Of a stretch of 64,000 nucleotides of DNA, positions 31,352 through 62,262 are shown piece after piece (position 1 is the stretch's first letter; each line of letters opens with the position of its first letter). The stretch is from assembly GCA_964648335.1 (NCBI GenBank), contig CAZYLZ010000001.1:93449-157448 (forward strand). The letters are read 5' to 3'. This DNA is from an uncultured Candidatus Saccharibacteria bacterium. GTDB lineage: Bacteria; Patescibacteriota; Minisyncoccia; Phycocordibacterales; UBA2100. The notes below the pieces were generated by a model. The model saw only the letters and a list, made by a program, of their open reading frames with translations, did not search any database and was not told the origin of the DNA. Position numbers and translations under genes: made by a program.

Positions 31352-31755
31352 ACCATCAAGAAAAAGGCATGATCAAGGAAAATCCAAACCTCATAACGCT
31401 CAAAGAAGCGGCAGAAATGTCTGGCTATAGTTCGGACTACATTGGGCAACTGATTCGCAGTGGAAAGTTACCCGGGCAGCAGGTATTCGCCAATGTTGCA
31501 TGGATGACGACGCGCGAGGCAGTCCTCGAATACACACAGAAGGGACGGAGGTCTTCTGTCGGGTCCACGGGCAGCCTGTTCGAAAAGATGTTTTCGATTG
31601 AGCGATTGGTCGCGATCTTCGGGGTTTTCACCAAGGCGGTTATCGGTCTTATGGCGGTGTTCTTGCTTTTTCTGGGCTACGTACTGTCGGTCAGCATCGA
31701 TCACCACATCGAGAAGCAGTACCAGGAGAAACTAGAGCATGCACAGAGCATCTAA
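31339..31755 (+). CDS. small membrane-tethered DNA-binding protein with an excisionase/MerR-type HTH (HTH_17-like) and a C-terminal TM helix
   Basis: ITLKEAAEMSGYSSDYIGQLIRSGKLPGQQVFANVAWMTTREAVLEY fits the Xis-family HTH pattern; TM AVIGLMAVFLLFLGYVLSV; its 3' end overlaps the giant gene 2 start by 17 nt. Confidence 0.65.
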   Translation: MTNLDHQEKGMIKENPNLITLKEAAEMSGYSSDYIGQLIRSGKLPGQQVFANVAWMTTREAVLEYTQKGRRSSVGSTGSLFEKMFSIERLVAIFGVFTKAVIGLMAVFLLFLGYVLSVSIDHHIEKQYQEKLEHAQSI

Positions 31756-34700
31756 ACCCTCACGTGCGATTTTTCGCGCCCTCTTGCGGTGGCAGGATCT
31801 TTTTGCCGTACTCGCACTATCTTCGACGCTCCTCTCGCCGGTACTCGTCCTCCCGCTCCCGGCATACGCTGCAGTCGGAGTGCCACGCATCATCAACAAT
31901 CAGGGACGTCTCATGGATGCTAACGGTAGCCTCCTTGGCGGTGCGGGTACCGATTACTGTTTCAAATTCTCGCTGTTCGATGACGCTTCCGTGGGTTCCG
32001 GTTCGCAAGTCTGGCCGTCGGTCGCTCCGTCGATCATGACAGTTCCTGTGAAGCAAGGTATCTACTCGGTCGGTGTCGGAGACACGGATCAGGGTGGCGA
32101 CGTGCTCGACTACAATTTCCAGGACAACGACGCTGTGTACTTGAATGTCGAGGTTGCTGCAAAGGTTGGTGCTACGTGTGCTGTCGGCGATGGTGCTGAG
32201 ACATTCGAGAACCTCTCGCCACGTCAGCGTATTTTCGCATCCGGCTATGCCGTTAATGCCGCGACGGTCGGAGGCTTTACACCGGCGCAGCAGGCTACGG
32301 GAAATCAGATCCCGGTTTTGAGCGCCGGAAATCTCATCCTCGCTGCATCTAACCCGTTCATCAATGCGACCTCGACGAACGCACTTACCCTGCAGGGAGG
32401 TGGCAGCGTATCAGGAGACATTCGGTTTTTCAATGCCGGCAACAAGCTGACATCGGCTGGCAATCTCACACTCACAGGTTCGGTTACCGCATCGGGTCTT
32501 TCGAGCTTTACGAATCTGTTGATCGGCGGCCTCTCGACTACGACCATCCAGGGTACGACCTCCGGCACGTCGACCATCCAAGGATTCTTGAATGTACTTG
32601 GGACCAACTCGACGTCTACGTTCTCCGGATCTATCGCAACTCCGTTTCTTAACCTGACGGGAGCAGGTGCTACCTCGACTGCAGCGAGCGGCTTCGATAT
32701 CGCCGCAGGCTGTTTCTCGATTGGCGGCGTCTGTGTTGGCGGGGTCAACTCAATCACGGCCAATGCGGACAACACACTTGTCGTTGACCCGACAGGCGGT
32801 AATGCCATTGTCGGACTCAATCTTTCTAACGCAAATATCTGGACTGGTTTGCAGCAATTTGCAAACGCGTCGTCGAGCATCTTTTCTGCAGGAAAGGCAT
32901 TCTTCGGAGCGACGGCAACCACCACTATCGATTCGGCCGGCAACGTCGACGTCGCGGGTACACTTGATGTTTCTGGCAACACCACGCTCGCCAAGGCGAC
33001 GTCGACATCGTTTGCGATAACGTCGGTAACCAACACGCTGTTGAAGACGGATGCCAACGGTTCGGTCGTTCCTGCGGTTCCAGGATCCGACTATCTTGTC
33101 TCGGCGGTTACATCACTCGGTGCTGCCGGACAAGCACAGACCGGAGCGACGCAGACCTTTGCAACATCCACGACCGTGACAAACGGCTTGACCGCTGCTA
33201 TCACAATCACTTCAAGTGGGAATGTGCATACGTTCACGCCGTCGGTAACGGGTACTCTCTCGGCGCTCGGCGGAGGTACCGGAATCGCTAATCCTTCGGC
33301 TGGGGGAATCCTCATCGGCTCGTACGTGGGCGGTGCGTACCAGCAGATTGCGACGTCGTCCTTGGGTATCCGTACCACCGATGTCCAGGAGGGATCTAAC
33401 CTGTACTACCAGGACGCAAGAGTTAATTCGTTCATCGATGCATCGACGACGATTCCGAAGACATTTTCTGCGAACGTCTTCTCGGGCCTCACTACGCTCA
33501 ATGGAGGTCTTACGGTTGGTTCATTGAACGGTCCCTTGCAGGCAAACAACGGCGTCGTGTCAGCTACCTCATCCATTGGTGTGGCATACGGAGGTACGGG
33601 AGTCTCTACTGCGCCGGCGTACGGACAGCTGCTTGTTGGCAACGCAGCATCAGGATATTCGCTCGTTGCGACATCGACCCTCGCTATCGCACTCACTGAC
33701 ACGACTGGGACGCTTGCAGTGAATCGCGGCGGCACCGGCATCACTTCACCGACAGCAGGTGCTATCGTACTTGGTGATTACTCGGGTACCGGGTACATGC
33801 AGATCGCGACATCGTCCTTGGGTCTGCTCACCACGAACGTCGCCGAAGGCTCGAATCTGTATTATCAGAACGCCCGCGTGCTCACGTACCTCGACTCGTT
33901 CGACAAAGGTTATTTCTATTCGACGACCTCGGCTGATTTCTGGAAATCACAGAATGATTTCTATTCGACGACCTCCGCCGACTACTGGAAGTCCCAGAGT
34001 AACTTCTTCTCTACTTCGTCCGTTGACTTCTGGAAGTCGCAGACCAACTTCTACTCCACGACCTCGGCGGATTATTGGAAGTCACAGAACAGCTTCTTTT
34101 CGACGACCTCATCAGACTACTTCCTCTCGCAAAACCGGGGTAGCGCGTTCTCGACGACCTCGGCCACGTACTTTGCCGATGCGTCCTCGACTATTGCCAA
34201 GACCTACTCGAACAATACGTTCACCGGAGTGAACGTATTCAATGGCGATACGACGCTCACGAACGCAACGACTGCATCATTGGCTGTAACAGGCGTGACA
34301 TCTTCTCTTCTTAAGACGAACGCAGATGGTTCTGTCGTGCCAGCGGTTGCCGGTGTCGACTACGCGGCTGCAAATGCATCGACATTCGGCAAGACCTTCG
34401 AGATCGACGCATCAGGCTACCTCGCTCCGACCACCTCGGTCACCGTGCGCCTTCCATCGGGATTCGTGTCGCAGGCATCGTCGACGGTTGATGGAAATCT
34501 CACGGTGACGGGGAATCTCACGGCAGGGAATGCCACTGTAACTCATGCGACTTCGACTTCATTCTTTGCTTCCGTTGCATCTTCAACAAACGCCTTCTTT
34601 ACCCGATTCGTCACTGGTAACGCCACGGCCACTGGTGCATTCGCTGCAGCAAATCTCGCTGTGACGGGTTCTACCACGCTTCAGAATGTCACCGCACAGA

Positions 34701-37700
34701 ATGCGACGACCACTAACGCCACTTCGACGTCGTTCTTTGCGGGCGTCTTGGCAGCGACCTCCGGCACTATTGCCAACATCTTTGGCACCAACGCCACCAT
34801 CACCGCAGCAACTACGACAAACCTTTTCGCGACCACCGCATCGACGACTAATCTCTTCGCCTCGAACCTCACTTTCGCCGGGGGGCAGGGAACGACAAGT
34901 GCCCTTGCCATCACCGGCATCACAAATGGCCTCTTGGGCACCAATGCAAACGGATCAATCAGCGCGACGTCCTTCTCGGGGCCGCTCTCGTTCTTCGGCA
35001 ACACCCTCACCATCACCCAGGCTAATGGCGCTACGAGCGGCTTCCTCGCATCTTCCGACTGGAACGTGTTCAACGACAAGGTGTCATCTACTTCCTTGGA
35101 TACCTCGGCAAAACTTGCCGCGCTCATCACCGACGAGACAGGATCCGGCTCTCTTGTCTTCGGCACTGCACCATCAATCACTGACGGGCGCTTCGCTTCG
35201 ACCACCTTATCTGGAAATGTGCTCATCACCGGCAATGCGACAGGTACGAATGCAACCACCACCACCTTTTATTCCACAACTGCATCAAGTACGAATTTGT
35301 TCACCTCGAATCTCTCCATCGGAAACCTAAATGGCCTTCTCAAGTCGACGAATGGACTGGTTGCCACCGCTATTGCGGGTACCGACTACATATCGAGCGT
35401 CTTCAAGGATTGGAATGTTGTAAACGGCGTTCTCGTACCTACTACCACGATCGGCGTTATCGTATCTGCGTCTTCGACGTTCGCCGGGGGCATCACAACA
35501 AGCAATGCTACGGCGACAAACGCTACGACAACCTCTTTGTTCGCATCTATCGCGTCTTCAACGAGTGCTTTTGCAACTAAGCTCTTTATCGGAAACGGAA
35601 CTTCTACCGGCGTATTTGCATCGAACGGTCTCATTGTCTCGGGATCGACAACGCTCCAAGATTTTGCAGGAGCCAACGCTACAATGACGAATGCGACATC
35701 CTCGTCGTTTTTCTCTTCAATCCTTTATGCCTTCAACGGCAGAATTGGCGATCTCATAGCTTCTACCAGTGCGACGCTAGCATCTACCACCGCCTACGGA
35801 CGGTTTATTACTGGAACTGTGGTCGCGACTTCATCTACCGGCACGTCGACTTTCTCTGGAGCAGTTGGAGTGGGTACTACAAACCCTTCGTATAAGGTTT
35901 CGATAGTTGGGTCTACGACGGCTGCAACATCGGCTACCGGTACCGCAGTCCTCTCCGTCACGAACACCAACAACACCTTGAGCTCGGGAACGAACGTCTT
36001 GCGTCTCAACATCCGCACGCCGTTCGGGACGGCATGCACTTCGGGCACGACATGCCCCCGCTTCATCGAGTATGTCTCGGGTATGGCAAATGGATCAGAT
36101 ACCGGAGGAGCGGGTGTCGGAAGCTTACGCCTCTCTACTGCTGGCACCGGTATCACGCAAACATCGGGCGCCGCAGACTTCGCTGAGTACATGCAGCTCA
36201 ATTCGTCGGCCGATGTCGGAGACCTTGTTTCGCTCAACTCGAGCGGACAGTACCAGAAGGCGGTAGCTGGTCAGTCGCTCATCGGCGTTATCTCTGACAA
36301 TCCGGCATTCGTTGGCAATGCAAACCTCGAAGGTCAGCCAAACGCATACGTCGTTGGGTTTGCCGGCGTCATCCAGACCACCGTGAGCGCAGAGAACGGT
36401 TCTATTAACGCCGGAGACCTCATCGCTGCGACGACGACTCCAGGCTTGGGTGTAAAACTTACTAAGTCGGGATACGCGCTGGGCCAGGCGCTCGAGTCGT
36501 ACTCGGGCCCGGGTAACGGAACCATCAAGGTCCTCGTGATGCCGAAGTACGTCGATGCGGCGATCGTACTCGATAGCTACGGCGGAACGACTGGCGGGAC
36601 ATCGGGCTACTGGAGCCTTGCAACATCGACCGGGGAAGTGAGCCTCGCCTCGAGTACGTATTCGCTCCTAATCTCAGGAAAACTCTCTGCTGCCAACGCA
36701 TCCACCACGAACATCTCATCGACCTATGCGTCTTCGACCCGCGCATTCGTCGGTGCGCTCTCGGTCGGTAACTTGAATGGAGTCTTAAAGGCCACTGGCG
36801 GTCTCGTATCGACGGCGCTCGTCAATCTTACGAGCGAAGTGACGGGCACCTTGCCGGTGTTAAACGGAGGTACCAATATATCGACCCCGACTGCAGCAGG
36901 TGTACTGGTAGGCAACTACGCTGGAGACGGCTATATGCAGGTAGCGACATCGTCTTTGGGATTGACGACGACGAATATCACCGAAGGCACAAACCTCTAC
37001 TACCAGAACGCACGCGTGCTCTCGTACCTCAACACCCTCGACAAGGGCTACTTCTTTGCTAGTACCTCTGCCGATTATTGGAAGACTCAGAACAACTTCT
37101 TCTCGACTACGTCTGTCGATGCCTGGAAACTGGTCAATAACTTCTTCTCGACGACTTCGACCGACTACTGGAAAACCCAGAACAATTTCTTCTCTACGAC
37201 CTCGGCCATGTACTTTGCCGACGCATCATCGACTATCGCCAAGACCTACTCGAACAACACCTTCACCGGAGCGAATGTGTTCAATGGCGATACTACCTTG
37301 GGTAAGGCAACATCATCGTCATTCGCTGTCACCGGCATCAGCTCTGCGCTCGTCAAAGCCAATGCCAATGGTTCGTTCGTGCCGGCGATCCCGGGAGTTG
37401 ATTATGCTGCGGCGAACGCATCGACCTTCGGGCAGACATTCGAGATTGGAGCCGACGGGTTCCTGGCCCCGACGTCGTCCATTGTTGTTCGACTCCCGAA
37501 TGGATTCGTCTCGCAGGCATCGTCGACGGTCGATGGAAATCTCACTGTCACGGGATCGCTTGCTGCTGGAAACGCGACCATGACTAACGCGACGACAACG
37601 AGCCTTTTTGCATCCGTCGCATCTTCGACCAACGCCTTCTTCACCCGCCTCATCACTGGCAACGCCACCTCGACCGGCCAGTTCGCTGCAGCCAACCTCT

Positions 37701-40700
37701 CGGTAAGCGGCTCCACGACGCTCCAGAACGTTTCGGCAGTGAACGCAACCACGACGAATGCGACCACCACCGGCAGCGCCTACATCGCGAATCTCTCGCT
37801 CGGCTCGGCACTCACCGCTTCAAACGGCGGTACTGGCATCTCGGCTCCTGCAGCAGCTGGCATCCTCCTGGGCAACTACGCAGGCGGCGGCTACCAGCAG
37901 CTCGCAACATCCTCGCTCGGCCTCTCTACTACCGACATCACCGAAGGCACAAACCTCTACTACCAGAACGCCCGTGTCTTGACCTACCTCGACACGTTCA
38001 ACAAGGGCTACTTCTACTCAACAACGTCAACTGACTACTGGAAGACCCAAAACAATTTCTTCTCAACCACCTCGGCAGATGCCTGGAAGCTCGTGAGTAA
38101 CTTCTTCTCTACCACCTCCTCACAGTACTTCTTGTCGCAGAACCAGGGAGCCGCGTTCTCGACCACGTCGGCCATGTACTTTGCCGACGCATCATCGACT
38201 ATCGCCAAGACCTACTCGAACAACACCTTCACCGGAGCGAATGTGTTCAATGGCAACACGACCTTGGGCAAGGCGACCACCACATCCTTTGCCATCACCT
38301 CGGTGCCTGCCGCCATCCTCAAGACCGATGCAAACGGCTCCGTCATCCCGGCGATCGCCGGCGTCGACTACCTCACGGGCAGCCTCTACGGCAAGTCATT
38401 CGAGATCGACGCATCGGGCTACCTCGCACCGACCACCTCGGTCACGGTGCGTCTCCCGAGCGGCTTTGTCTCCCAAGCATCGTCGACGGTCGATGGAAAT
38501 CTCACCGTGACCGGTAACGTGACTGCCGCAAACGCCACTGTAACTAATGCGACCTCGACATCGTTGTTCGCCTCGATTGCTTCGTCGACGAGCGCTTTTG
38601 CCACGCGTTTGTTCGTCGGGAATGCGACGGCGACTGGGGTGTTTGCAGCCAACGGCCTCATCGTATCCGGCTCGACGACGTTGCAGAATTTTTCGGGTAA
38701 CAATGCGACCACTACGAACCTGTATGCCGTAACGGCATCTACGACAAATCTCTTCGTATCGAACGGCACTATCGTTCGCTCGACTACCACAAACGCGACA
38801 ACAACGACCAGTTTCGCAACTACTGCTTCGTCGACTAATCTTTTCGCTTCGAACTTCTCACTTGGCAACCTCACGGGAATACTCAAGGCAACTGCGGGTA
38901 CGGTGTCGACCGCGCTCGTGAATCTGGCGACCGATGTCACGGGCATCTTGCAGGTGGCAAACGGAGGCACCGGCTGGGCAGCGGTGCAGGCGGGATCGCT
39001 CTTGTATGGAAATGGATCGGGTAGCTTGGCTACTACGACACAGGGCAGCGCAGGCCAGATGCTCGCGTTCTTGAACGGCGTGCCGACGTGGGTCGCGACG
39101 ACCACGTTCTCGAACGGCCTTACCTATGCCAATGGAAATGTCACGCTCTCTTCGCAAGTCGCGCTCACTAACGCGTCTTCTACTGCGGTATCTGCCAATG
39201 ACTATCTTTCGGTTGGTCGAACAGCGACGACCACAATCCGTGGCGAAACGAACGCAACATCTACCTTTGCTGGTGGTATCCAGGCAACCGCACTCAACCT
39301 TACGGGTGCTGCGACATCTTCTGCCTCGGGTGGATTCAATCTCACAGCCGGGTGTTTTGCAGTGAACGGGACCTGTCTCGGAAACGCGCAACCAGGAACT
39401 AATGTTGTATTGACTGCGGTGCGCAATTACACGACAACGCAACAGTGGACGGTCCCGTCAAACCTCGTGTATGCAGTGGTCGAAGTGTGGGGTGGTGGTG
39501 GAGGAGGAGGAGACGGAGACGGTACCGGAGACGGTACCGGCGGCGGCGGCGCAGGCGGTTATGCATCAAAGACGTACACGGCGACCACGTTGGTCGGAAC
39601 TACTTCGATCCAGGCGCTTGTTGGTGCCGGCGGTGCAACGACAACGAGCGCGACCGGCAGTACTGGCGGTACCTCAAACTTCGGTGGATACGCCACCTCG
39701 ACTGGCGGTGCAGGCGGCGTCCGTGCAAATGGTGGCGAAGGCGCGGGAGGAGCCGGCGGGGTCGGCTCTGGAGGCGATATTAACCTGGCAGGAGAACCGG
39801 GTGGTCTGGGCGATACGACGATGGCAAACCAACAAGGTAACGGTGGTTCCGCGCCTCGCGGCGGTAACGGCGGCCTTGGAGGAAATCAGACCACGGGTAA
39901 TGGCGCAGTGGGTGGTACCTGCGGTGGCGGTGGCGGTGGCGCCGGTGGTGCGGCAGGAGGCGGCGGTACTGGTTGCATAGTCATCTATGAATACACGGCC
40001 ACTAACGTTGCACTCGGAAACGGCAGCGTAAATTCCGGATCGACCGGTCAGGTTGCTTACTATAACGCTGCTGGGCAGGCGGTCACGGGCTCGTCGATAC
40101 TATATATAGACAGTGTAAACGGTCGCGTGGGAGTCGGTTCGACCACTCCGGCCGCCGCCTTGGGTGTCTCGGGCGACGCATTCATAAACGGACGGGTGAC
40201 AGCGTCGCACCTGACTGCAACAGGTACCTTGTCGGTCACTGGGTCCACGACACTCCAAAACTTTACAGCGGGAAATTCGACCACATCTAATGCAACCTCG
40301 ACCAATACGTTTGCCACGACGGCATCGTCGACAAACCTTTTTACATCAAACTTTACCTTGGGTGGTCTTACCGGGATCCTCAAAGCAACTGCGGGTCTCG
40401 TCTCTGCATCTTTAGTAGACCTCACCACCGACATCACCGGCATCCTCCAGGTAGCAAACGGCGGAACCGGATGGGACAACCTTGTCGCCGGAACACTCCT
40501 TACCGGCAATGGCTCGGGCAAGGTGGCTACCACCACGATCGGATCCTCGCTCCAGATCTCGGGCTCGTCTCTTGGTCTCAATCTCTCGAATCCGAACATC
40601 TGGACCGGTCTCCAGACTTTCACCAACGCGTCGACCACCTTTGTCTCCGTCCTTACTAAGGCGTCGTTCGGATCGACCGCCACCACCACCATCGACTCGG

Positions 40701-43387
40701 CAGGTAACGTGGCGGTGGCGGGGAACTTGAACGTCGCCGGTATCACGCTTCTCGGACAGGCAACTACCACGAACCTTCTGGTAACCGCATCGACTACTTT
40801 GCAGAACTTCACTGGACAGAACTCGACCACGACCAACGCCACTTCGACGACGTTGTTCGCCAACACCGCATCGACCACAAATCTCTTTGCATCCAACGGC
40901 ACTATCACGCGATCGACCACCACGAATGCAACTACCACTTCCTTGTTTGCGAACACGGCGTCTACGACTGATCTCTATTCGTCCAACAGCATCATCACCC
41001 GTGCAACCACGACAAACGCGACTACCACATCGCTCTTCGCGACCGTGGCGTCCTCTACAAATTTATTTGCTTCTAACTTCTCGCTCGGTAATCTTTCGGG
41101 CATCCTCAAAGCGACCGCAGGCGCCGTATCGACGTCGTTGGCAGACCTCACCACCGACATCACCGGCATCCTCCAGGTAGCAAACGGCGGAACCGGATGG
41201 GACAACCTTGTCGCCGGAACACTCCTTACCGGCAATGGCTCGGGCAAGGTGGCTACCACCACGATCGGATCCTCGCTCCAGATCTCGGGCTCGTCTCTTG
41301 GTCTCAATCTCTCGAATCCGAACATCTGGACCGGTCTCCAGACTTTCACCAACGCGTCGACCACCTTTGTCTCCGTCCTTACTAAGGCGTCGTTCGGATC
41401 GACCGCCACCACCACCATCGACTCGGCAGGTAACGTGGCGGTGGCGGGGACACTCGCCGTAACTGGGAACACGACATTGGCTGCGGCAACGACCTCGAAT
41501 TTACTCGTAACCGGATCAACAACTCTCCAAAACTTTACTGCTCGAAACGCGACGACAACGCAGGCCACGACTACGACACTCTATATCTCTTCTGCGCTAC
41601 GAGGGGCAGGGCTCAGTGCCTGTGCAAATGCTACCGATAAGCTTTTGTGGGATACAGCGACAGCGCAGTTTAGCTGTGGAACAGACGCGGGTGCCGGTAC
41701 TGGAATCGCAAACTTGGGTGCTGCAGGACAATTGCAGAACGGCGCATCTCAGACGTTTGCGACCTCGACAGACACCAATATTGGTCTCACGATCACGTCG
41801 CTCGCTAACGTGCATACGTTCACCACCATCTGGAACGGCATATTATCGGTGGCGCGTGGCGGCACTGGTTGGGCCACTATTCAGGCTGGTACCTTGCTCA
41901 CCGGTAACGGAAGCGGCGCGGTGGCGACGACCACTATAGGATCGTCCCTCCAAATCTCGGGATCTACGCTTGCACTCAACCTCACTAATGCGAATGTCTG
42001 GACGGGATTGCAGACCTTTGCAAATGCATCAACAACTTTGTTCGAATCCGTGACGCAATTTGCGCAGACCATACAGTCGACTTCGACAAACGCGCTAGTC
42101 ATCAAATCAAATCTTAGTTCGACTGCCGGCCTTACCTTGGGCGGCACCACCACACCGCAGATACTCGGCATTGATACGCTGAATACCCGCGTCAAGATCG
42201 GTACCGGCGGTGCTACGCCCGTTTTGTTCGTGCTCGACACCAAGAATACGGCAGGAGATCCGACAGGAGTCGATGGTGCGCAGTATTACAACTCGAATAC
42301 GAGCGATTATCGCTGCTTTAGCGGAACGACCTGGAGGAGCTGCGGCGGCTTGGCAGCGAGCTCGACAGGAGACGTGCAGTTCAAGAACGTCGATGGATCG
42401 TTTACCGCGTCTTCGAACTTTAACTGGAGCATGGCCAACAACGGCCTCACTATCACTGCATCATCGTCATCGCAGACGACCGATCTCTTTACTATCGCGT
42501 CGAGTACCGGAGCGCCAATGTTCGCTGTCAGCAGCAAAGGTGTTCTAGAGTTGGCCACGACTACTGACCCGGCGGCGCCTGCTGCGGGACAGCTCAATAT
42601 ATATGCGAAAAATATTGCCGGACGCATCATGCCCAAATGGATCGGCCCAAGCGGAGTCGATACTCCATTTCAGGCGAACCTCGGATTCAATCGCGTTTCT
42701 ATGATGATGCCGGCAGGAGGCACAACTGCGACTACATTCGTCGGCGGATTAGGCTCTACCTTTACCAACGTTGTGACAACCGCAGCAAACCCAACGCCTA
42801 CCACCGCAAGCTTACTGACATCGACACGTCGCGCAACATTCAGCACAGGTACGACCCTCAATACCATAACCTCACACCGCCAGAGCACGTTGCAGGTTAC
42901 GCGCGGGAATTCTTCGAATATCGGCGGCTTCTTCTATACGATACGATTTGGCACTTCGGTAACTCCGGCAGGTAATCGCGTGTTCGTCGGTCTTTCGGAT
43001 TCGGTGGCAGCACCTGCCAACCTCGATCCTTTGGTCACCGGCACTGGAATAGGTCGTGTGGGCATGGCAATTAATGCCAACACAGGCAACTGGAGTTTTG
43101 TGCACAACGTGTCCGGTACTGCGCCGACAGTCTATAACCTTGGTGCTAGTTTTCCCGTTGATAACACCAGTCTCTATGAGCTTATTCTTTTCTCTAAACC
43201 AAATGACACTGTCATAAGTTATCGCGTGAAGAACCTTGCGACGGGTGCAGAGTTAGCCAGTACGACGCTTTCAACCAACATTCCGGCCAATACAACTTAT
43301 TTAGCACCACAGTTCTGGATGGTAAACGTAGCTGCTGCCATCGCCACCTTCGATTTCGGTGGCTGGTACCTCGAGAGCGACCAATAA
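31739..43387 (+). CDS. giant secreted repeat protein (3882 aa): signal peptide, many nested tandem modules, a glycine-rich low-complexity segment, and a C-terminal jelly-roll-like domain
   Basis: Uninterrupted ORF; signal peptide ..LPLPAYAAVGV. Repeated GA(I/V)(L/V)LG.Y.G.GY(M/Q)Q(I/L)ATSSLGL.TT(N/D)(V/I).EG(S/T)NLYYQNARV(L)(T/S)YLD four times; STTS(A/T)DYWK(S/T)QNNFF about 10 times; VANGGTGW..L.AG(T/S)LL(T/Y)GNGSG..ATTT four times. Confidence 0.9.
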   Translation: MHRASKPSRAIFRALLRWQDLFAVLALSSTLLSPVLVLPLPAYAAVGVPRIINNQGRLMDANGSLLGGAGTDYCFKFSLFDDASVGSGSQVWPSVAPSIMTVPVKQGIYSVGVGDTDQGGDVLDYNFQDNDAVYLNVEVAAKVGATCAVGDGAETFENLSPRQRIFASGYAVNAATVGGFTPAQQATGNQIPVLSAGNLILAASNPFINATSTNALTLQGGGSVSGDIRFFNAGNKLTSAGNLTLTGSVTASGLSSFTNLLIGGLSTTTIQGTTSGTSTIQGFLNVLGTNSTSTFSGSIATPFLNLTGAGATSTAASGFDIAAGCFSIGGVCVGGVNSITANADNTLVVDPTGGNAIVGLNLSNANIWTGLQQFANASSSIFSAGKAFFGATATTTIDSAGNVDVAGTLDVSGNTTLAKATSTSFAITSVTNTLLKTDANGSVVPAVPGSDYLVSAVTSLGAAGQAQTGATQTFATSTTVTNGLTAAITITSSGNVHTFTPSVTGTLSALGGGTGIANPSAGGILIGSYVGGAYQQIATSSLGIRTTDVQEGSNLYYQDARVNSFIDASTTIPKTFSANVFSGLTTLNGGLTVGSLNGPLQANNGVVSATSSIGVAYGGTGVSTAPAYGQLLVGNAASGYSLVATSTLAIALTDTTGTLAVNRGGTGITSPTAGAIVLGDYSGTGYMQIATSSLGLLTTNVAEGSNLYYQNARVLTYLDSFDKGYFYSTTSADFWKSQNDFYSTTSADYWKSQSNFFSTSSVDFWKSQTNFYSTTSADYWKSQNSFFSTTSSDYFLSQNRGSAFSTTSATYFADASSTIAKTYSNNTFTGVNVFNGDTTLTNATTASLAVTGVTSSLLKTNADGSVVPAVAGVDYAAANASTFGKTFEIDASGYLAPTTSVTVRLPSGFVSQASSTVDGNLTVTGNLTAGNATVTHATSTSFFASVASSTNAFFTRFVTGNATATGAFAAANLAVTGSTTLQNVTAQNATTTNATSTSFFAGVLAATSGTIANIFGTNATITAATTTNLFATTASTTNLFASNLTFAGGQGTTSALAITGITNGLLGTNANGSISATSFSGPLSFFGNTLTITQANGATSGFLASSDWNVFNDKVSSTSLDTSAKLAALITDETGSGSLVFGTAPSITDGRFASTTLSGNVLITGNATGTNATTTTFYSTTASSTNLFTSNLSIGNLNGLLKSTNGLVATAIAGTDYISSVFKDWNVVNGVLVPTTTIGVIVSASSTFAGGITTSNATATNATTTSLFASIASSTSAFATKLFIGNGTSTGVFASNGLIVSGSTTLQDFAGANATMTNATSSSFFSSILYAFNGRIGDLIASTSATLASTTAYGRFITGTVVATSSTGTSTFSGAVGVGTTNPSYKVSIVGSTTAATSATGTAVLSVTNTNNTLSSGTNVLRLNIRTPFGTACTSGTTCPRFIEYVSGMANGSDTGGAGVGSLRLSTAGTGITQTSGAADFAEYMQLNSSADVGDLVSLNSSGQYQKAVAGQSLIGVISDNPAFVGNANLEGQPNAYVVGFAGVIQTTVSAENGSINAGDLIAATTTPGLGVKLTKSGYALGQALESYSGPGNGTIKVLVMPKYVDAAIVLDSYGGTTGGTSGYWSLATSTGEVSLASSTYSLLISGKLSAANASTTNISSTYASSTRAFVGALSVGNLNGVLKATGGLVSTALVNLTSEVTGTLPVLNGGTNISTPTAAGVLVGNYAGDGYMQVATSSLGLTTTNITEGTNLYYQNARVLSYLNTLDKGYFFASTSADYWKTQNNFFSTTSVDAWKLVNNFFSTTSTDYWKTQNNFFSTTSAMYFADASSTIAKTYSNNTFTGANVFNGDTTLGKATSSSFAVTGISSALVKANANGSFVPAIPGVDYAAANASTFGQTFEIGADGFLAPTSSIVVRLPNGFVSQASSTVDGNLTVTGSLAAGNATMTNATTTSLFASVASSTNAFFTRLITGNATSTGQFAAANLSVSGSTTLQNVSAVNATTTNATTTGSAYIANLSLGSALTASNGGTGISAPAAAGILLGNYAGGGYQQLATSSLGLSTTDITEGTNLYYQNARVLTYLDTFNKGYFYSTTSTDYWKTQNNFFSTTSADAWKLVSNFFSTTSSQYFLSQNQGAAFSTTSAMYFADASSTIAKTYSNNTFTGANVFNGNTTLGKATTTSFAITSVPAAILKTDANGSVIPAIAGVDYLTGSLYGKSFEIDASGYLAPTTSVTVRLPSGFVSQASSTVDGNLTVTGNVTAANATVTNATSTSLFASIASSTSAFATRLFVGNATATGVFAANGLIVSGSTTLQNFSGNNATTTNLYAVTASTTNLFVSNGTIVRSTTTNATTTTSFATTASSTNLFASNFSLGNLTGILKATAGTVSTALVNLATDVTGILQVANGGTGWAAVQAGSLLYGNGSGSLATTTQGSAGQMLAFLNGVPTWVATTTFSNGLTYANGNVTLSSQVALTNASSTAVSANDYLSVGRTATTTIRGETNATSTFAGGIQATALNLTGAATSSASGGFNLTAGCFAVNGTCLGNAQPGTNVVLTAVRNYTTTQQWTVPSNLVYAVVEVWGGGGGGGDGDGTGDGTGGGGAGGYASKTYTATTLVGTTSIQALVGAGGATTTSATGSTGGTSNFGGYATSTGGAGGVRANGGEGAGGAGGVGSGGDINLAGEPGGLGDTTMANQQGNGGSAPRGGNGGLGGNQTTGNGAVGGTCGGGGGGAGGAAGGGGTGCIVIYEYTATNVALGNGSVNSGSTGQVAYYNAAGQAVTGSSILYIDSVNGRVGVGSTTPAAALGVSGDAFINGRVTASHLTATGTLSVTGSTTLQNFTAGNSTTSNATSTNTFATTASSTNLFTSNFTLGGLTGILKATAGLVSASLVDLTTDITGILQVANGGTGWDNLVAGTLLTGNGSGKVATTTIGSSLQISGSSLGLNLSNPNIWTGLQTFTNASTTFVSVLTKASFGSTATTTIDSAGNVAVAGNLNVAGITLLGQATTTNLLVTASTTLQNFTGQNSTTTNATSTTLFANTASTTNLFASNGTITRSTTTNATTTSLFANTASTTDLYSSNSIITRATTTNATTTSLFATVASSTNLFASNFSLGNLSGILKATAGAVSTSLADLTTDITGILQVANGGTGWDNLVAGTLLTGNGSGKVATTTIGSSLQISGSSLGLNLSNPNIWTGLQTFTNASTTFVSVLTKASFGSTATTTIDSAGNVAVAGTLAVTGNTTLAAATTSNLLVTGSTTLQNFTARNATTTQATTTTLYISSALRGAGLSACANATDKLLWDTATAQFSCGTDAGAGTGIANLGAAGQLQNGASQTFATSTDTNIGLTITSLANVHTFTTIWNGILSVARGGTGWATIQAGTLLTGNGSGAVATTTIGSSLQISGSTLALNLTNANVWTGLQTFANASTTLFESVTQFAQTIQSTSTNALVIKSNLSSTAGLTLGGTTTPQILGIDTLNTRVKIGTGGATPVLFVLDTKNTAGDPTGVDGAQYYNSNTSDYRCFSGTTWRSCGGLAASSTGDVQFKNVDGSFTASSNFNWSMANNGLTITASSSSQTTDLFTIASSTGAPMFAVSSKGVLELATTTDPAAPAAGQLNIYAKNIAGRIMPKWIGPSGVDTPFQANLGFNRVSMMMPAGGTTATTFVGGLGSTFTNVVTTAANPTPTTASLLTSTRRATFSTGTTLNTITSHRQSTLQVTRGNSSNIGGFFYTIRFGTSVTPAGNRVFVGLSDSVAAPANLDPLVTGTGIGRVGMAINANTGNWSFVHNVSGTAPTVYNLGASFPVDNTSLYELILFSKPNDTVISYRVKNLATGAELASTTLSTNIPANTTYLAPQFWMVNVAAAIATFDFGGWYLESDQ
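39485..39990 (+). repeat. glycine-rich low-complexity coding segment (GGGGGGDGDGTGDGTGGGGAGG ... GGGGGGAGGAAGGGGTGC) within giant gene 2
   Basis: ggtggtggtggaggaggaggagacggagacggtaccggagacggtaccggcggcggcggc and following; G-rich but with no G-X-Y periodicity. Confidence 0.8.
40417..40724 (+). repeat. copy 1 of a 308-nt perfectly identical direct repeat inside giant gene 2 (726-bp period)
   Basis: Base-for-base identical to 41143..41450 on manual comparison; flanks diverge. Confidence 0.9.
41143..41450 (+). repeat. copy 2 of the 308-nt perfectly identical direct repeat
   Basis: Identical to 40417..40724; encodes DLTTDITGILQVANGGTGWDNLVAGTLLTGNGSGKVATTTIGSSLQISGSSLGLNLSNPNIWTGLQTFTNASTTFVSVLTKASFGSTATTTIDSAGNVAVAG in both copies. 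Confidence 0.9.
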
Positions 43388-45311: not shown

Positions 45312-46640
45312 ATGCGTGCGACCTCCAACACACAGAAGGTTCTCAGCGTCTTTCTGATGCTCGTATGGGTTATGTCGCCCGTATCTGCCGTCTTTGCCGA
45401 CAGCTTTTCGAGTACTAATTTCAAGGCAAAGGATCCCGTAACGAACAATTTTGGCGGGTCAGCCTCGTCGACCAGCTTCTCGTCGGTCCAGAGCGGAGGG
45501 CAGTCGGTGACGGGCGAATCTACGAGCACGAGTTACGCCATAACGATGGGCTATGCCTATTTCGAGACTTTTACGCCGCGATCGGGTAACTGGCAGTGGT
45601 TTTCTGACGAGACGAACGAGACACCAACCGCCGCGCTTGCGTCAGAAAACGTCGCGCCGAGCGATATGGGCGAGCAGGACGTTACCAAGCTGCGCATCAC
45701 GGTGCACGAGATTGCCGATATCGGTTCGAGCGGACAAAAGTTCCGCCTCCAGTATTCGACATCGTCTGATTTTTCTTCGGGCGGAATCTTCGTGTCCGAG
45801 CAGACGGTCTGTAACGGCTCCTCACAATGGTGCTATGCAGACGGTGCCGGAGTCGACAACGCGATCGTCACTACCTCTGTCCTTACCGATCCTGATTCGT
45901 GCGTAGCGAGCGTCGGCGACGGTTGTGGCACGCATAACGAATACGGCACCTCGACATCGCTCTACACGCACAAGAAGAGCGCATCGAGCGAATACGAGTT
46001 TACGATCACCCAGTCCGGCGCTGCTATCAATACTGTGTATTTTTTTAGGCTTTTCGATGTCGCCGCGAGCTCATCGGTGGCGGCGTCATCGACGTATCCG
46101 AGTCTCTCGACGGGCGGATCGTCACTCACATTTACCGTCGACGGTCTCGATTCGGGAACGGTGACCGAGGGACAGACGACCGGTGTCACCACGACTCCGA
46201 CGTCGATCCCGTTCGGTACCTTGCCGTTCGGCTCGCCGACAGCTGCTGCGCAGCGGCTGACCGTAACGACGAACGCGAATCAGGGATACCAGGTCTATGC
46301 TCTTGCCGATCAGGGGCTCATCGATCAGACCGGAGCCGAGATTGCTCCGGTGACGGGTACCGATAGTACGCCCTTGGGATGGTCGACCGCGTGCGACACG
46401 AACGCCGCCGGGTGTTACGGCTATCATACGGGCGAAGACGTGCTCTCGGGCGGGTCGACGCGATTCTCCGCCGACGATACATTCGCGAGTTTCTCGAACA
46501 CACCGCAAGAGATCGGATTCAGCGCGGTGCCAGCGGTCTCGAAGCAGACCGATGTCGTGGTCCGTGTACTCGCACGTACGAGCCAAGATGCCGGCGCTTA
46601 TGCGAGCAGCATCATGTACATCATCGTTCCTGTCTTCTAG
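45312..46640 (+). CDS. secreted protein with a C-terminal WxL-like domain (candidate CscB/C-like surface protein)
   Basis: Signal peptide ..MSPVSAVFA; C-terminal module TSIPFGTLPFG..AAQRLTVTTNANQGYQVYAL..GAEI..PLGWSTA.. ends ..YASSIMYIIVPVF; paralogous to the C-terminus of CDS 49651. Confidence 0.5.
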   Translation: MRATSNTQKVLSVFLMLVWVMSPVSAVFADSFSSTNFKAKDPVTNNFGGSASSTSFSSVQSGGQSVTGESTSTSYAITMGYAYFETFTPRSGNWQWFSDETNETPTAALASENVAPSDMGEQDVTKLRITVHEIADIGSSGQKFRLQYSTSSDFSSGGIFVSEQTVCNGSSQWCYADGAGVDNAIVTTSVLTDPDSCVASVGDGCGTHNEYGTSTSLYTHKKSASSEYEFTITQSGAAINTVYFFRLFDVAASSSVAASSTYPSLSTGGSSLTFTVDGLDSGTVTEGQTTGVTTTPTSIPFGTLPFGSPTAAAQRLTVTTNANQGYQVYALADQGLIDQTGAEIAPVTGTDSTPLGWSTACDTNAAGCYGYHTGEDVLSGGSTRFSADDTFASFSNTPQEIGFSAVPAVSKQTDVVVRVLARTSQDAGAYASSIMYIIVPVF

Positions 46641-46669
46641 TGTGCATAAGTGCTTAACCGATTACCTGT

Positions 46670-48028
46670 ATGCCCCGTAAAATACAACCTATGTTCGCGC
46701 GACTCGTGGCCCCGTTCTTTTTGGCAGTGATGGTCTTCTCTCATGCACCGCTGCCGGCGTACGCCGCGACCGACATGACTGCCACACCGGCGGTCATGGA
46801 CGAGAAGGCTAAGGCGCGAGACATCCTTAAGAAGGAGATCACGATCAAGAACACGAGCAGCCGCAAGCTGACCGTGTATCCGATCGTCAAGGATGTCGTA
46901 TCAGAGACGGGGGCGACGGGATTCGTACAGGCACAAGATAGCACTGAGCGATCTGCATCGCTTGCCAACTGGATCGAGCTTTCCCGAGGCGTAATCGAGC
47001 TCGGTCCCGGCGAAGAGAAAGTCGTCCCCTTCGTGATCCGAGCCAACCTCAATGCGACGCCGGACATGTATCATGCGTATATAACCTTCGGTGAGGGCAA
47101 TACGCGCGAAGTCGCAGAAGCGAAGCCACCCCTGGCGACTGTCACGGTCAATCTCGAGCTTCAGGCCGACCTCAAAGAGCTTTTGCAGTTGAATAAGTTC
47201 ACGACCGAGAATGTTTATTTTGCCGGAGATGACGTACGTCTGAGCTACCAGTTCGAGAACATTGGTAATCAGACGCTCGCTCCTGCAGGAGAGATTGTCA
47301 TTTACGACCGCAAAGGGTCAGAAGTAGCGACCCTGGAGATAAATAAGGAAGGGAAGTCGGTGTCGCCCGCACAGATGACACAATTCGCGTCGGTCTGGAC
47401 TGCGGCTAAAGGGTATGGAAAGTTCAAGGCGCTTTTGAGTGTGCGCTACGGATCTGACGAGAAAGGGACGCTCCAAGACACAGTGTTCTTCTGGATAATA
47501 CCGTGGAAACAGATTCTTGCGGCGTTCATCATCGGCATCATTCTCATAACGATTTTCGTATTCTATTTCCACGGCAAGATATCGCTCCGCAGGCGTCCAG
47601 GCCTCGTCGAGGCAGCACCGCTTGCAGCTGCGGTGCCGCGGATGTCTGCCGACATAGCACGGCCTGTCTCTGCCGTTTCAGATGCTCCTGTCGACGCTCC
47701 ACGCGAGGGCCTCGTCAAACGAGGGGTCATGTCGGTACTCCGTGGTGTCTTGTGGCCGTTTACCTTTGTTATGTCCTTGTTTAAGCGAAAAGCGCGCAAT
47801 CCCGAAGCGGCACGCATTCAGACTGAAGATACGTCAGTCCGCGCCGAGATTCCTGCATCGGCAGAGCGCGGCGGCTCTCCTGCTGCTGGTGATGCCGCGC
47901 CGCGCCGCGCGTCCTTCGATGAAGCGAATCAGGGCACGGTGATCGATCTTAAGAAGATTCGCAGCATGGACCGCTCGAAAGACATCGAACCGACCGACGG
48001 ACACGTGATAAATCTAAAGCGGCGATGA
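46670..48028 (+). CDS. CscA-like (DUF916/DUF3324-like) surface protein with a C-terminal TM anchor and a cytoplasmic tail of about 150 aa
   Basis: Signal peptide ..HAPLPAYAA; WIELSRGVIELGPGEEKVVPFVIRANLNATPDMYHAYITF; TM ILAAFIIGIILITIFVFYF. Confidence 0.55.
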   Translation: MPRKIQPMFARLVAPFFLAVMVFSHAPLPAYAATDMTATPAVMDEKAKARDILKKEITIKNTSSRKLTVYPIVKDVVSETGATGFVQAQDSTERSASLANWIELSRGVIELGPGEEKVVPFVIRANLNATPDMYHAYITFGEGNTREVAEAKPPLATVTVNLELQADLKELLQLNKFTTENVYFAGDDVRLSYQFENIGNQTLAPAGEIVIYDRKGSEVATLEINKEGKSVSPAQMTQFASVWTAAKGYGKFKALLSVRYGSDEKGTLQDTVFFWIIPWKQILAAFIIGIILITIFVFYFHGKISLRRRPGLVEAAPLAAAVPRMSADIARPVSAVSDAPVDAPREGLVKRGVMSVLRGVLWPFTFVMSLFKRKARNPEAARIQTEDTSVRAEIPASAERGGSPAAGDAAPRRASFDEANQGTVIDLKKIRSMDRSKDIEPTDGHVINLKRR

Positions 48029-50793: not shown

Positions 50794-50808
50794 TGGCCTA
50801 GTCAAGCA

Positions 50809-50837
50809 AAAGCCGTCCACTGGACGGCTTTTGTCTT
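50809..50837 (+). terminator. rho-independent terminator after the WxL-like gene
   Basis: aagccgtcca/tggacggctt perfect inverted repeat followed by TTGTCTT. Confidence 0.7.
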
Positions 50838-50865
50838 AATGCCGAGAGCCCCTAGGTATGCTAGT

Positions 50866-61964: not shown

Positions 61965-62262
61965 GAGGTGATTATAGTGCTCGAGAGGCTATTAATTCAA
62001 CATCAGGCCACTACAGCGCTCTAAGAGGTATGCTTTCGCACACCTCCGGTGCTCTTTTTTTGGCGGTGCATTCGGGTTAAGTGCCCGTGCCTACCAATCA
62101 TTGTAAGGGTTTTTGAGGAACTTTAACACTAGCGGATTTGAGGCATGTGGGTCGGTCTCAATAGACACGATAGACACTATAAAAAGGATTGAGAAAGTGT
62201 CTTGTGTGACCGTGGAGGTATTTACACCTTTGACCACCTAGATACTTTTCTATATATGCAGA

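What the first reader, a model, noticed from the sequence alone, without database searches (positions are those of the whole stretch)
40417..41450. Perfect 308-nt direct duplication (726-bp period) inside giant gene 2
Manual comparison shows that 40417..40724 and 41143..41450 are base-for-base identical, while the flanks differ. Older, diverged copies of the same module exist at about 32760-32960 and about 41880-42050. This is therefore either a very recent in-frame duplication (repeat-number variation of a surface fibre) or an assembly artefact.
Basis: seen in the sequence. Interest (0 to 1): 0.6.

Follow-up and report, generated by a model that had tools for sequence, protein, structure and literature searches.

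The report
Gene-conversion tract in giant adhesin gene
Two neighbouring, anciently diverged repeat modules inside a 3,882-residue secreted, probably fibre-like surface protein of a Saccharibacteria-type (CPR) bacterium share a perfectly identical 308-bp patch, most simply a recent copy-over (gene conversion) from one module to the other; this is an ordinary way for repetitive surface-protein genes to evolve.

Summary
Window 40417-40724 and 41143-41450 are base-for-base identical: 308 nt, period 726 nt (242 codons), in frame in ORF 31739-43387. It is by far the longest exact repeat in the window.

The reading "very recent duplication" is not supported. Only 308 of the 726 nt are identical. The flanks at the same register are homologous, but their synonymous sites are saturated (pS 0.87 and 0.70, against 0 of 85 synonymous sites in the core). 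The two ~190-aa modules are therefore old paralogs, and the core is a recent gene-conversion tract between them.

A false expansion in assembly is unlikely.
- Three independent assemblies break exactly at the repeat exit 41450|41451: two JGI contigs start 55 nt inside the repeat and one Logan contig starts 30 nt inside.
- The unique 418-nt segment between the copies can only lie between two cores.

One JGI contig (L023) joins the left flank of copy 1, one core and the right flank of copy 2 in an open frame. This is either a real one-unit allele or a collapsed repeat. Reads are needed to decide, and to show whether the identity is truly perfect.

The gene belongs to an unannotated Saccharibacteria family with a conserved N-terminal domain, a variable number of modules and a lectin-fold C-terminus. 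Interest is low to moderate.

The parts
31739..43387 (+). Giant gene 2: 3882-aa secreted, Ser/Thr/Asn-rich modular protein and putative fibre-like adhesin. Identical to NCBI MAG protein P0054, which sits on a 168,164-nt contig.
   Evidence: ORF list and translation. P0054 equals the window protein. No Pfam, PHROGs or NCBIfam family matches. The N-terminus reads as a Sec signal peptide: basic n-region, hydrophobic core, AYA|A site (read from the sequence; inference).
40283..40860 (+). Repeat module A (about 190 aa), containing core copy 1.
   Evidence: Register-726 comparison. Repeat family D6. Self-blastn 40321-40851 vs 41047-41577, 85.7%.
40417..40724 (+). Core copy 1: the 308-nt exact tract (aa 2893-2996).
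   Evidence: 308/308 identity with 41143-41450. 0 of 85 synonymous sites differ.
40725..41142 (+). Unique inter-copy segment 'M', 418 nt. It consists of the right flank of A, a 90-nt x2 diverged tandem repeat (40853-41028) and the left flank of B.
   Evidence: Tandem repeat finder. No exact repeat of 20 nt or more elsewhere in the window involves this segment. The reading frame stays open.
41009..41586 (+). Repeat module B (about 190 aa), containing core copy 2.
41143..41450 (+). Core copy 2: the 308-nt exact tract (aa 3135-3238). Three independent assemblies break at its 3' end.
   Evidence: L001 and L003 start at 41396, 55 nt inside the repeat. Logan contig L025 starts at 41421, 30 nt inside, and is 100% identical over 5183 nt.
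41783..42154 (+). Terminal module C, an older paralog of A and B (57% aa identity). It is conserved next to the C-terminal domain in relatives L017 and L005.
   Evidence: blastp. Ortholog sequences. Nucleotide similarity 70%.
38849..39322 (+).
   Evidence: blastp. Self-blastn 38732-39039 vs 40955-41262, 68%.
32573..33010 (+). Oldest recognisable paralogous module (40% aa identity).
   Evidence: blastp. Nucleotide similarity 71% over 32813-32958.
37202..37288 (+). Second exact tract: 87 nt identical to 38168-38254 (period 966), inside ~900-nt units that are otherwise ~70% identical. Probably a second, shorter conversion tract.
   Evidence: Exact-repeat list. Difference map. Repeat families D1, D2 and D4.
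42686..43384 (+). C-terminal all-beta domain with a ConA/legume-lectin-like jelly-roll fold. It is conserved in at least 235 Saccharibacteria-type proteins.
   Evidence: Homologs. AlphaFold2 mean pLDDT 76, rising to 80-93 over residues 170-400 of the query. Foldseek against PDB: top hits are legume lectins, E 5e-7, TM(target) 0.5-0.59.

Best explanation
The 308-bp identity is the footprint of a recent intragenic gene conversion, that is, non-reciprocal homologous recombination. Two tandem modules, A (~40283-40860) and B (~41009-41586), arose by an ancient duplication. They diverged until their synonymous sites were saturated. More recently, 308 bp (~102 codons) of one module was overwritten with the other module's sequence, in register and in frame. 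Which module was the donor cannot be told.

The gene encodes a secreted giant protein of a Patescibacteria (CPR) organism, most likely a Saccharibacterium. The protein has three parts: a conserved N-terminal domain, about 3,200 aa of lineage-specific Ser/Thr/Asn-rich modules that probably form a stalk or fibre, and a conserved lectin-fold C-terminal domain that probably binds a glycan on the host bacterium.

A consequence is inferred but not shown. The 308-bp perfect homology is now a substrate for unequal crossover. Such a crossover would remove or add one 242-aa unit in frame and so change stalk length. The product expected from a deletion is left flank of A, one core, right flank of B. JGI contig L023 shows exactly this.

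Shown: the identity, the old flanks, the abrupt boundaries, the in-frame register, the independent assembly breaks and the family architecture.

Inferred: the recombination mechanism, the fibre and adhesin function, and length variation.
For: (1) 308/308 identity with abrupt ends.

(2) The flanks at the same register are homologous but old: pS 0.87 and 0.70, dN 0.23 and 0.31, against 0 differences at 85 synonymous and 221 non-synonymous sites in the core. Amino-acid conservation therefore cannot explain the identity.

(3) The permutation test gave 0 of 200,000.

(4) The module is collinear with single modules in relatives across both tract boundaries (L017 module 1). The tract is therefore part of the module and not an inserted element.

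(5) A second exact tract of 87 nt lies in another pair of ~70%-identical units in the same gene. The syntenic 3707-aa ortholog in an unrelated MAG (L004) has its own exact internal repeats of 218, 173, 155 and 113 nt. Patchy homogenisation therefore recurs in the long members of this family.

(6) The repeat is seen independently of the window's assembly. JGI contigs L001 (sample 3300045330) and L003 (sample 3300045372) both start at 41396, 55 nt inside the repeat end. Logan contig L025 (SRR35242010, 100% identical over 5183 nt) starts at 41421, 30 nt inside. These offsets are what de Bruijn graphs with k=55 and k=31 give at a repeat exit (my knowledge of assemblers).

(7) L023 is an open 722-codon frame with exactly one unit.

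(8) Family context. The N- and C-terminal domains are conserved, while length runs from ~380-690 aa (typical) through 912, 1132 and 3707 to 3882 aa. The C-terminus has a lectin-like fold. Saccharibacteria need multiple adhesins and glycan-binding envelope proteins for epibiotic growth (PMC10633639).
Against: No reads were available. The perfect identity therefore rests on one MAG consensus. An assembler that merges bubbles could have turned two copies of, say, 98% identity into 100%. A second core haplotype with 7 SNPs does exist in the population (L023).

The donor and the direction of conversion cannot be determined.

The one-unit contig L023 could be a repeat collapse. Its tail is chimeric, and contigs L002 and L024 from the same project are also chimeric.

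The fibre reading is indirect. AlphaFold2 gave no confident fold for the module (pLDDT 57), and no Pfam, PHROGs or NCBIfam family matches.
Confidence: 0.72

Rival explanations
1. Assembly artefact. Either the genome has only one unit and the assembler traversed a spurious loop, or it stitched together alleles of two strains. A milder version: two real but slightly different copies were merged into one consensus that was then used twice.
For: The sequence is a MAG from a strain-mixed population. SNP sets are shared in mosaic combinations among contigs of several samples. A second core haplotype with 7 SNPs exists. One contig (L023) shows a single unit. No other assembly in the searched collections spans the region: the core 24-mer and a left-flank 24-mer were both absent from metagenome contigs.
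Against: Segment M (40725-41142) is unique, in frame and homologous to module flanks. It is bounded by the core on both sides, so any genome that contains M must carry core-M-core. The alternative resolution of the graph leaves M as an orphan 726-nt circle.

Three independent assemblies with two different k values break exactly at 41450|41451. Both continuations after the core therefore exist in the reads of those samples.

An assembler cannot create identity from sequence that is ~61% identical. Even the mild version leaves a near-identical tract with abrupt ends, which still means conversion.
Confidence: 0.12
2. One reading: a very recent tandem duplication of a 726-bp unit added a repeat to the fibre.
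For: The period is an exact multiple of 3, and the two copies lie in tandem in the same gene.
Against: Only 308 of the 726 nt are identical. The other 418 nt of the period do not match at that register beyond ~235 nt of old homology with saturated synonymous divergence. There is no duplication junction. Both tract ends fall at homologous positions inside pre-existing modules.
Confidence: 0.03
3. Strain polymorphism rather than paralogy. The population contains one-unit and two-unit alleles produced by unequal crossover in the core, and the window shows only the two-unit allele. This is compatible with the best explanation and extends it. Taken as a rival claim, it says the biologically relevant state is length variation, not a fixed two-unit gene.
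For: L023 is an open frame with left flank of A, one core and right flank of B, with no gap or frameshift. A paired-end-aware assembler should not join the left flank of A to the right flank of B through a 308-nt repeat unless such molecules exist (inference from my knowledge of assemblers). Related species carry 1 (L005), 2 (L017) or many modules.
Against: L023 has a chimeric tail, and contigs from the same project are chimeric at short repeats. L023 shows 0 SNPs in its first 1162 nt and then 19 SNPs, with the switch inside the core. That also fits a path that jumped between copies or strains inside the repeat.
Confidence: 0.35
4. The identity is maintained by selection on the nucleotide sequence itself, for example an embedded RNA, a regulatory element or a mobile insert present twice.
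For: None positive. It was considered because identity also holds at synonymous sites.
Against: There is no Rfam family in 39000-43000. The tract is collinear coding sequence of the module in relatives, which differ freely at the DNA level. The L023 haplotype carries 7 substitutions in the core, mostly synonymous, so the nucleotide sequence is not constrained.
Confidence: 0.01

Closest known systems
Concerted evolution and gene conversion among tandem repeats of bacterial surface proteins, for example the alpha C / Rib family of group B Streptococcus and the repeat regions of staphylococcal SasG/Aap and Bap-type adhesins (my knowledge, not tested here)
   Same: In-frame repeat units inside a secreted surface protein. 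Stretches of nucleotide-identical sequence between units. Recombination between identical units changes unit number and protein length.
   Different: Those proteins carry many near-identical whole units. Here only two of at least five old, strongly diverged modules share one 308-bp patch. The protein family, the fold and the organism (CPR/Saccharibacteria) are unrelated.
Cassette-based antigenic variation by gene conversion, as in Neisseria pilE/pilS, Mycoplasma genitalium MgPa/MgPar and Anaplasma msp2 (my knowledge)
   Same: Non-reciprocal copying of a segment between diverged homologous sequences, with abrupt tract ends, in a surface-exposed protein.
   Different: Those systems use silent donor cassettes outside the expressed gene and produce diversity. 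Here donor and recipient are both inside one expressed ORF, and the result is homogenisation. No extra copies were found outside the gene in the 64 kb.
Phage tail fibres and tailspikes with intramolecular chaperone domains (Peptidase_S74, PF13884; phi29 gp12 autochaperone)
   Same: Homologs of the repeated module occur in CPR proteins that end in PF13884 (P0011 and P0039). A central segment of the protein (aa 1480-1554) weakly matches the phi29 preneck appendage C-terminal domain 3gqh (E 0.007). The composition and the module's lack of a monomer fold fit a fibrous oligomer.
   Different: No PF13884 and no PHROGs family is detected in this protein. The gene sits in a cellular context and is conserved in synteny among Saccharibacteria MAGs. 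Trimerisation is untested.
Saccharibacteria envelope adhesins and glycan-binding proteins required for epibiotic growth (Wang et al., Cell 2023, PMC10633639)
   Same: Same phylum-level group. Secreted envelope proteins with lectin-like, dockerin and FN3 domains. The window also encodes FN3 and dockerin/Big proteins next to the giant genes, and gene 2 ends in a lectin-fold domain.
   Different: No sequence relationship to the proteins named in that paper was tested. Function here is inferred only from architecture.

Membership tests
Gene-conversion tract between paralogous repeats | An identical or near-identical tract embedded in homologous flanks that are much more diverged, in the same register | tested here: met
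   308/308 identity against 61% identity in 270 flanking aligned positions at period 726.
Gene-conversion tract between paralogous repeats | Homogenisation includes synonymous sites, so protein-level selection does not explain it | tested here: met
   Core: 0 of 84.7 synonymous sites differ. Flanks: pS 0.87 and 0.70.
Gene-conversion tract between paralogous repeats | Abrupt tract boundaries and statistical excess of the longest identical run (GENECONV-type test) | tested here: met
   Identity drops to 64% in the 36 nt left of the core and to 44% in the 16 nt to its right. 0 of 200,000 permutations reach a run of 308.
Gene-conversion tract between paralogous repeats | Both copies physically present in one molecule | not testable with these tools
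   No reads were available. Indirect support: three assemblies break at 41450|41451, and the inter-copy segment is unique.
Recent tandem duplication (repeat-number gain) | The whole duplicated period is identical or near-identical, with a novel junction | tested here: not met
   Only 308 of the 726 nt are identical. The remainder is old homology or unrelated sequence.
Assembly artefact (expanded or collapsed repeat) | Read coverage and spanning reads inconsistent with two copies | not testable with these tools
   There is no read access. Indirect evidence points both ways: breaks at the repeat exit in three assemblies against the one-unit contig L023.
Phage-tail-fibre-like protein with intramolecular chaperone (Peptidase_S74, PF13884) | Detectable PF13884 domain or a PHROGs tail-fibre family | tested here: not met
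   Pfam, PHROGs and NCBIfam gave no such hit on the 3882-aa protein. There is only a weak PDB sequence hit to the phi29 gp12 C-terminal domain, E 0.007. PF13884 is present in the module homologs P0011 and P0039.
Concanavalin-A-like lectin/glucanase fold (C-terminal domain) | Jelly-roll beta-sandwich superposable on legume lectins | tested here: met
   AlphaFold2 pLDDT 80-93 over the last ~230 residues. Foldseek against PDB: E 5e-7, probability 1.00, TM(target) 0.5-0.59, but rmsd about 6-7 Å and 10% identity.
Concanavalin-A-like lectin/glucanase fold (C-terminal domain) | Carbohydrate-binding or metal-binding residues conserved | not tested
   No residue-level comparison was made. Sugar binding is an inference.
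Cassette-type antigenic variation locus | Silent donor cassettes outside the expressed gene | tested here: not met
   All exact and near-exact repeats of the module lie inside ORF 31739-43387. Only 64 kb could be examined.

The most novel reading that the evidence does not exclude
The tract is one visible event of an ongoing shuffling process in the giant host-attachment proteins of epibiotic Saccharibacteria. Patchy gene conversion creates long perfect homologies between old modules. Unequal crossover at those patches then produces coexisting alleles with different numbers of 242-aa units (one unit in L023, two in the window). Stalk length and exposed sequence of a lectin-tipped fibre would then vary within a natural population, in the manner of size or antigenic variation, perhaps in response to host-surface diversity or host defence.
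Probability: 0.2. Interest if true: 0.45.

Novelty: new member of a known kind. Interest (0 to 1): 0.22.

Why it matters
The mechanism is textbook: gene conversion and possible unit-number change in a repetitive surface-protein gene. The finding therefore changes little by itself.

Its modest value has three parts.

1. It corrects the annotation-level reading. The tract is not a new repeat and is probably not an artefact.

2. It flags a practical hazard. Every short-read assembly found breaks or collapses here, so this gene will be fragmented or shortened in most MAGs.

3. It draws attention to a large, unannotated Saccharibacteria protein family. Members share a conserved N-terminal domain and a lectin-fold C-terminus, with at least 235 homologs and no Pfam family. 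Their length ranges from ~380 to ~3,900 aa through gain and loss of modules. That makes the family a reasonable candidate for host-attachment adhesins in these epibionts, and the window's population data hint at within-population length polymorphism.

Tried and rejected
- A whole-protein homolog search timed out.
- An exact look-up of the 3882-aa protein found nothing on record, although the identical protein P0054 is in the collection.
- Two exact-pattern scans of metagenome contigs, one with a core 24-mer and one with a left-flank 24-mer, found nothing. No further contigs across the left boundary or the core could be obtained.
- Pfam, PHROGs and NCBIfam gave nothing usable on the protein. 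The single sub-threshold AtaL hit was ignored.
- AlphaFold2 on one module with 33 aligned sequences gave pLDDT 57 and almost no secondary structure. No fold search was run on it.
- The Rfam scan of 39-43 kb was empty.
- I tested whether the population SNP patches, including the 7-SNP core variant, were copied from paralogous modules in the window. They were not.
- L002 was checked as a possible structural variant at 40261. Both of its sides are unrelated sequence with no protein homology, so it is a chimeric contig.
- Two literature searches for giant surface proteins in Saccharibacteria or Patescibacteria returned nothing relevant.
- An inserted mobile element, and selection on the nucleotide sequence, were both considered and rejected (see rival explanations).
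Full report
**1. Observation**

Window 40417-40724 and 41143-41450 are identical at all 308 positions. The match cannot be extended by a single base on either side. The period is 726 nt, which is 242 codons.

Both copies lie in frame in the 3882-codon ORF 31739..43387 on the + strand. They cover aa 2893-2996 and 3135-3238.

This is the longest exact direct repeat in the 64 kb. The next longest are 87, 35 and 29 nt.

One lies at aa 279-424 (40% aa identity; nt similarity 71% at 32813-32958). The other lies at aa 3349-3472 (57%; nt similarity 70% at 41858-42039). A further copy at aa 2371-2528 (nt 38849-39322, 50%) was missed.

**2. What the flanks say**

At the same 726-nt register, similarity does not stop at the core. 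It continues for about 135 nt on each side at much lower identity.

A codon-by-codon comparison shows that the flanking amino acids are largely conserved while the codons differ. Nei-Gojobori counts:

| Region | pS | dN | Differences |
|---|---|---|---|
| Left flank | 0.87 | 0.23 | many |
| Right flank | 0.70 | 0.31 | many |
| Core | 0 | 0 | 0 at 85 synonymous and 221 non-synonymous sites |

All 105 differences among the 578 aligned positions lie outside the core. None of 200,000 random placements of those differences leaves a run of 308.

The two ~190-aa modules, A at ~40283-40860 and B at ~41009-41586, are therefore ancient paralogs. The core was homogenised recently.

A fresh tandem duplication of a 726-nt unit would have made the whole period identical. 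It is not identical. The 418 nt between the cores (40725-41142) is not a recent copy of anything. It contains the right flank of A, a diverged 90-nt x2 repeat and the left flank of B.

The pattern has four features: an identical tract, abrupt ends, an unchanged register, and old homologous flanks. Together these are the classical signature of gene conversion.

**3. Is it an inserted element or a constrained nucleotide element?**

It is neither.
- Single modules in relatives are collinear with A and B across both tract boundaries. An example is module 1 of the 1132-aa protein in L017.
- Rfam finds nothing in the region.
- A population variant of the core carries 7 substitutions, mostly synonymous.

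**4. Is it an assembly artefact?**

The window protein is identical to P0054, from an NCBI MAG contig of 168,164 nt. I could not see reads, but other assemblies of the same population are informative.

*Contig breaks.*
- JGI contig L001 (sample 3300045330, 7926 nt, 99.84% identical) starts at window 41396, exactly 55 nt inside the 3' end of copy 2.
- JGI contig L003 (sample 3300045372, 2245 nt, 99.56% identical) starts at the same position.
- Logan contig L025 (SRR35242010, 5183 nt, 100% identical) starts at 41421, exactly 30 nt inside.
- A de Bruijn-graph contig that leaves a repeat begins k or k-1 bases before the repeat's end. The values 55 and 31 are standard k for SPAdes and Logan respectively (my knowledge).
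- Three assemblies with two different k values therefore place a branch exactly at 41450|41451. The last bases of the core are followed by two different continuations in the reads of those samples.
- Nearby strain SNPs (41407, 41464) cannot explain the starts at 41396 and 41421.

*Graph logic.*
- Segment M is unique at k of 20 or more in the window.
- M is bounded by the core on both sides.
- The only linear placement of M is core-M-core.
- The alternative resolution gives a one-unit gene plus an orphan 726-nt circle.

*What remains open.*
- The 100% identity could be inflated by bubble merging.
- One-unit alleles may coexist with two-unit alleles.

**5. The one-unit contig**

L023 (JGI sample 3300045332) matches window 39317-40724 and then continues directly with 41451-42208. 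It has no gap and keeps an open 722-codon frame. Its order is left flank of A, one core, right flank of B. This is the product expected from unequal crossover between the two cores.

Its SNP pattern is uneven. There are none in the first 1162 nt, followed by 19 in the next ~1000 nt. Seven lie in the core at 40479-40681 and twelve in the right flank of B.

The right-flank SNPs recur in mosaic combinations in L001, L003 and L022. They are synonymous population variants and were not copied from paralogs.

L023's tail is unrelated sequence. L002 and L024 from the same project are also chimeric. I therefore cannot decide between a real one-unit allele and a collapsed repeat.

**6. Recurrence**

The same gene has an 87-nt exact tract (37202-37288 = 38168-38254) inside ~900-nt units that are otherwise ~70% identical.

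The syntenic 3707-aa ortholog in an unrelated Saccharibacteria MAG (L004) has exact internal repeats of 218, 173, 155 and 113 nt. They belong to a ~250-nt cassette present four times with unrelated flanks.

Patchy homogenisation is therefore a general property of the long members of this family.

**7. What the gene is**

*Database matches.* No Pfam, PHROGs or NCBIfam family matches.

*N-terminus.* It reads as a Sec signal peptide (inference).

*Homologs of the module.* They occur in proteins of Paceibacterota, Kaiserbacteria, Gottesmanbacteria and other CPR bacteria. Two of them end in the tail-fibre intramolecular chaperone domain PF13884.

*Central segment.* aa 1480-1554 weakly matches the phi29 gp12 appendage C-terminal domain (E 0.007).

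*Module structure.* AlphaFold2 gives no monomer fold for the module (pLDDT 57). That is compatible with a fibrous oligomer but does not prove one.

*C-terminal domain.*
- The C-terminal ~280 aa are conserved in at least 235 proteins, mostly from Saccharimonas or Saccharimonadales.
- They fold confidently as an all-beta domain.
- The best PDB matches are legume lectins with the ConA-like jelly roll: E 5e-7, TM 0.5-0.59.

*Family architecture.*
- Typical family members are ~380-690 aa and share the same N-terminal domain, for example P0059.
- Relatives have 912 aa (L005, one module), 1132 aa (L017, two modules) and 3707 aa (L004).
- The window gene is thus an expanded member: conserved ends, with ~3,200 aa of lineage-specific modules in between.

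*Neighbourhood.*
- The window encodes another giant protein of 5999 aa, FN3 and dockerin/Big proteins, and a MacB-type ABC transporter.
- Saccharibacteria are epibionts. They need several adhesins and glycan-binding envelope proteins to grow on their hosts (PMC10633639).
- A lectin-tipped surface fibre or adhesin is the most reasonable reading. It remains an inference.

**8. Mechanism, with degrees of support**

Shown:
- two old tandem modules;
- a 308-bp tract with no differences and abrupt ends, in frame;
- an independent graph branch at its 3' end in three assemblies;
- a one-unit contig.

Inferred:
- RecA-type non-reciprocal recombination copied one module's core over the other;
- the resulting perfect homology can mediate unequal crossover that removes or adds 242 aa;
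- this changes the length of a host-binding stalk.

**9. Novelty and score**

Gene conversion and unit-number change in repetitive surface-protein genes are well known. This is a new instance in an uncharacterised CPR protein family.

I score interest at 0.22. The most novel reading not excluded is active length or sequence variation of a Saccharibacteria attachment fibre within natural populations. I give it a probability of about 0.2 and an interest of 0.45 if true.

Noticed in passing
window 37202-37288 and 38168-38254: A second exact direct repeat of 87 nt (period 966) lies inside ~900-nt repeat units that are otherwise ~70% identical. It encodes 'STTSAMYFADASSTIAKTYSNNTFTGANVFNG' and is probably another, shorter conversion tract.
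   Followed up: partly
L023 (JGI 3300045332) 1-2166 = window 39317-40724 + 41451-42208: This contig carries exactly one unit (left flank of A, one core, right flank of B) in an open frame. It has 0 SNPs in the first 1162 nt and then 19 SNPs. The tail 2167-2599 is unrelated sequence.
   Followed up: yes
L022 (JGI 3300045333), starts at window 41432: The contig start lies 19 nt inside the repeat end. This does not fit the k=55 or k=31 logic that explains L001, L003 and L025, and it is unexplained.
   Followed up: no
window 41464-42415 compared with L001, L003, L022 and L023: Population SNPs occur in tight clusters: 41464/41509/41521, six within 41662-41728, and 41917, 42037/42062, 42298 and 42410/42415. 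They are shared in mosaic combinations among samples, which suggests recombining strains. The first two clusters are entirely synonymous.
   Followed up: partly
L002 (JGI 3300045377) and L024 (JGI 3300045378): These contigs are chimeric. L002 matches the window only at 39496-40261, with unrelated sequence on both sides. L024 has a 14-difference cluster at its first 60 nt (window 38416-38476). Assemblies of this gene are unreliable around short repeats.
   Followed up: partly
window 129-18128 (+): Giant gene 1 encodes 5999 aa with MG2, Ig_Rha78A_N and DUF2341 domains. It has internal repeats of 64-71% identity (for example 10030-11071 vs 14767-15808) and no long exact tract (longest 29 nt).
   Followed up: partly
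window 36176-36400 (aa 1480-1554 of gene 2): There is a weak sequence match (E 0.007) to the C-terminal autochaperone domain of the phi29 preneck appendage protein gp12 (PDB 3gqh). The surrounding ~450 aa are 60% identical to the L004 ortholog, so this is a conserved central domain and a possible autoproteolytic or chaperone module.
   Followed up: no
window 33914-34121, 37079-37204 and 38012-38129: Arrays of a 45-nt (15-aa) tandem repeat 'F(F/Y)STTSADYWK(S/T)QNN'. The same motif occurs in the CPR protein P0016 and in the L004 ortholog.
   Followed up: no
window ~39500-39990 (aa ~2590-2750 of gene 2): A glycine-rich segment (GGGGGGGDGDGTGDGTGGGGAGG...GGGGGGAGGAAGGGGTG) bounded by 'VVEVWGGG' and 'GCIVIYEY'. 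JGI contigs become chimeric at its start (L002, L024).
   Followed up: no
L004 4223-4487, 5054-5321, 7236-7490 and 2157-2411: The 3707-aa ortholog in a different Saccharibacteria MAG carries a ~250-nt cassette four times at 91-100% identity (exact runs of 218, 173 and 155 nt). The flanks are unrelated, so this is a dispersed rather than an in-register pattern.
   Followed up: partly
window 45312-49422 and 49651-51972: Downstream of gene 2 lie three tandem ORFs of ~440-465 aa and two of ~380 aa, none with a Pfam family apart from one weak WxLIP_PGBD hit. ORF sets of the same sizes follow the orthologs in L004 and L017 (conserved synteny).
   Followed up: no
window 62001-64000: GC content drops to 0.37, against ~0.55 in the rest of the window. 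The drop lies next to a DUF4238 gene (60999-61964) and an unannotated 433-aa ORF (62624-63925). This may be foreign DNA or an island boundary.
   Followed up: no
window 40060-40956 (-) and 40975-41568 (-): Long antisense ORFs (298 and 197 aa) overlap the repeat region. In L023 the JGI gene caller annotated the antisense ORF instead of the true + strand frame, so this gene is prone to mis-annotation.
   Followed up: no
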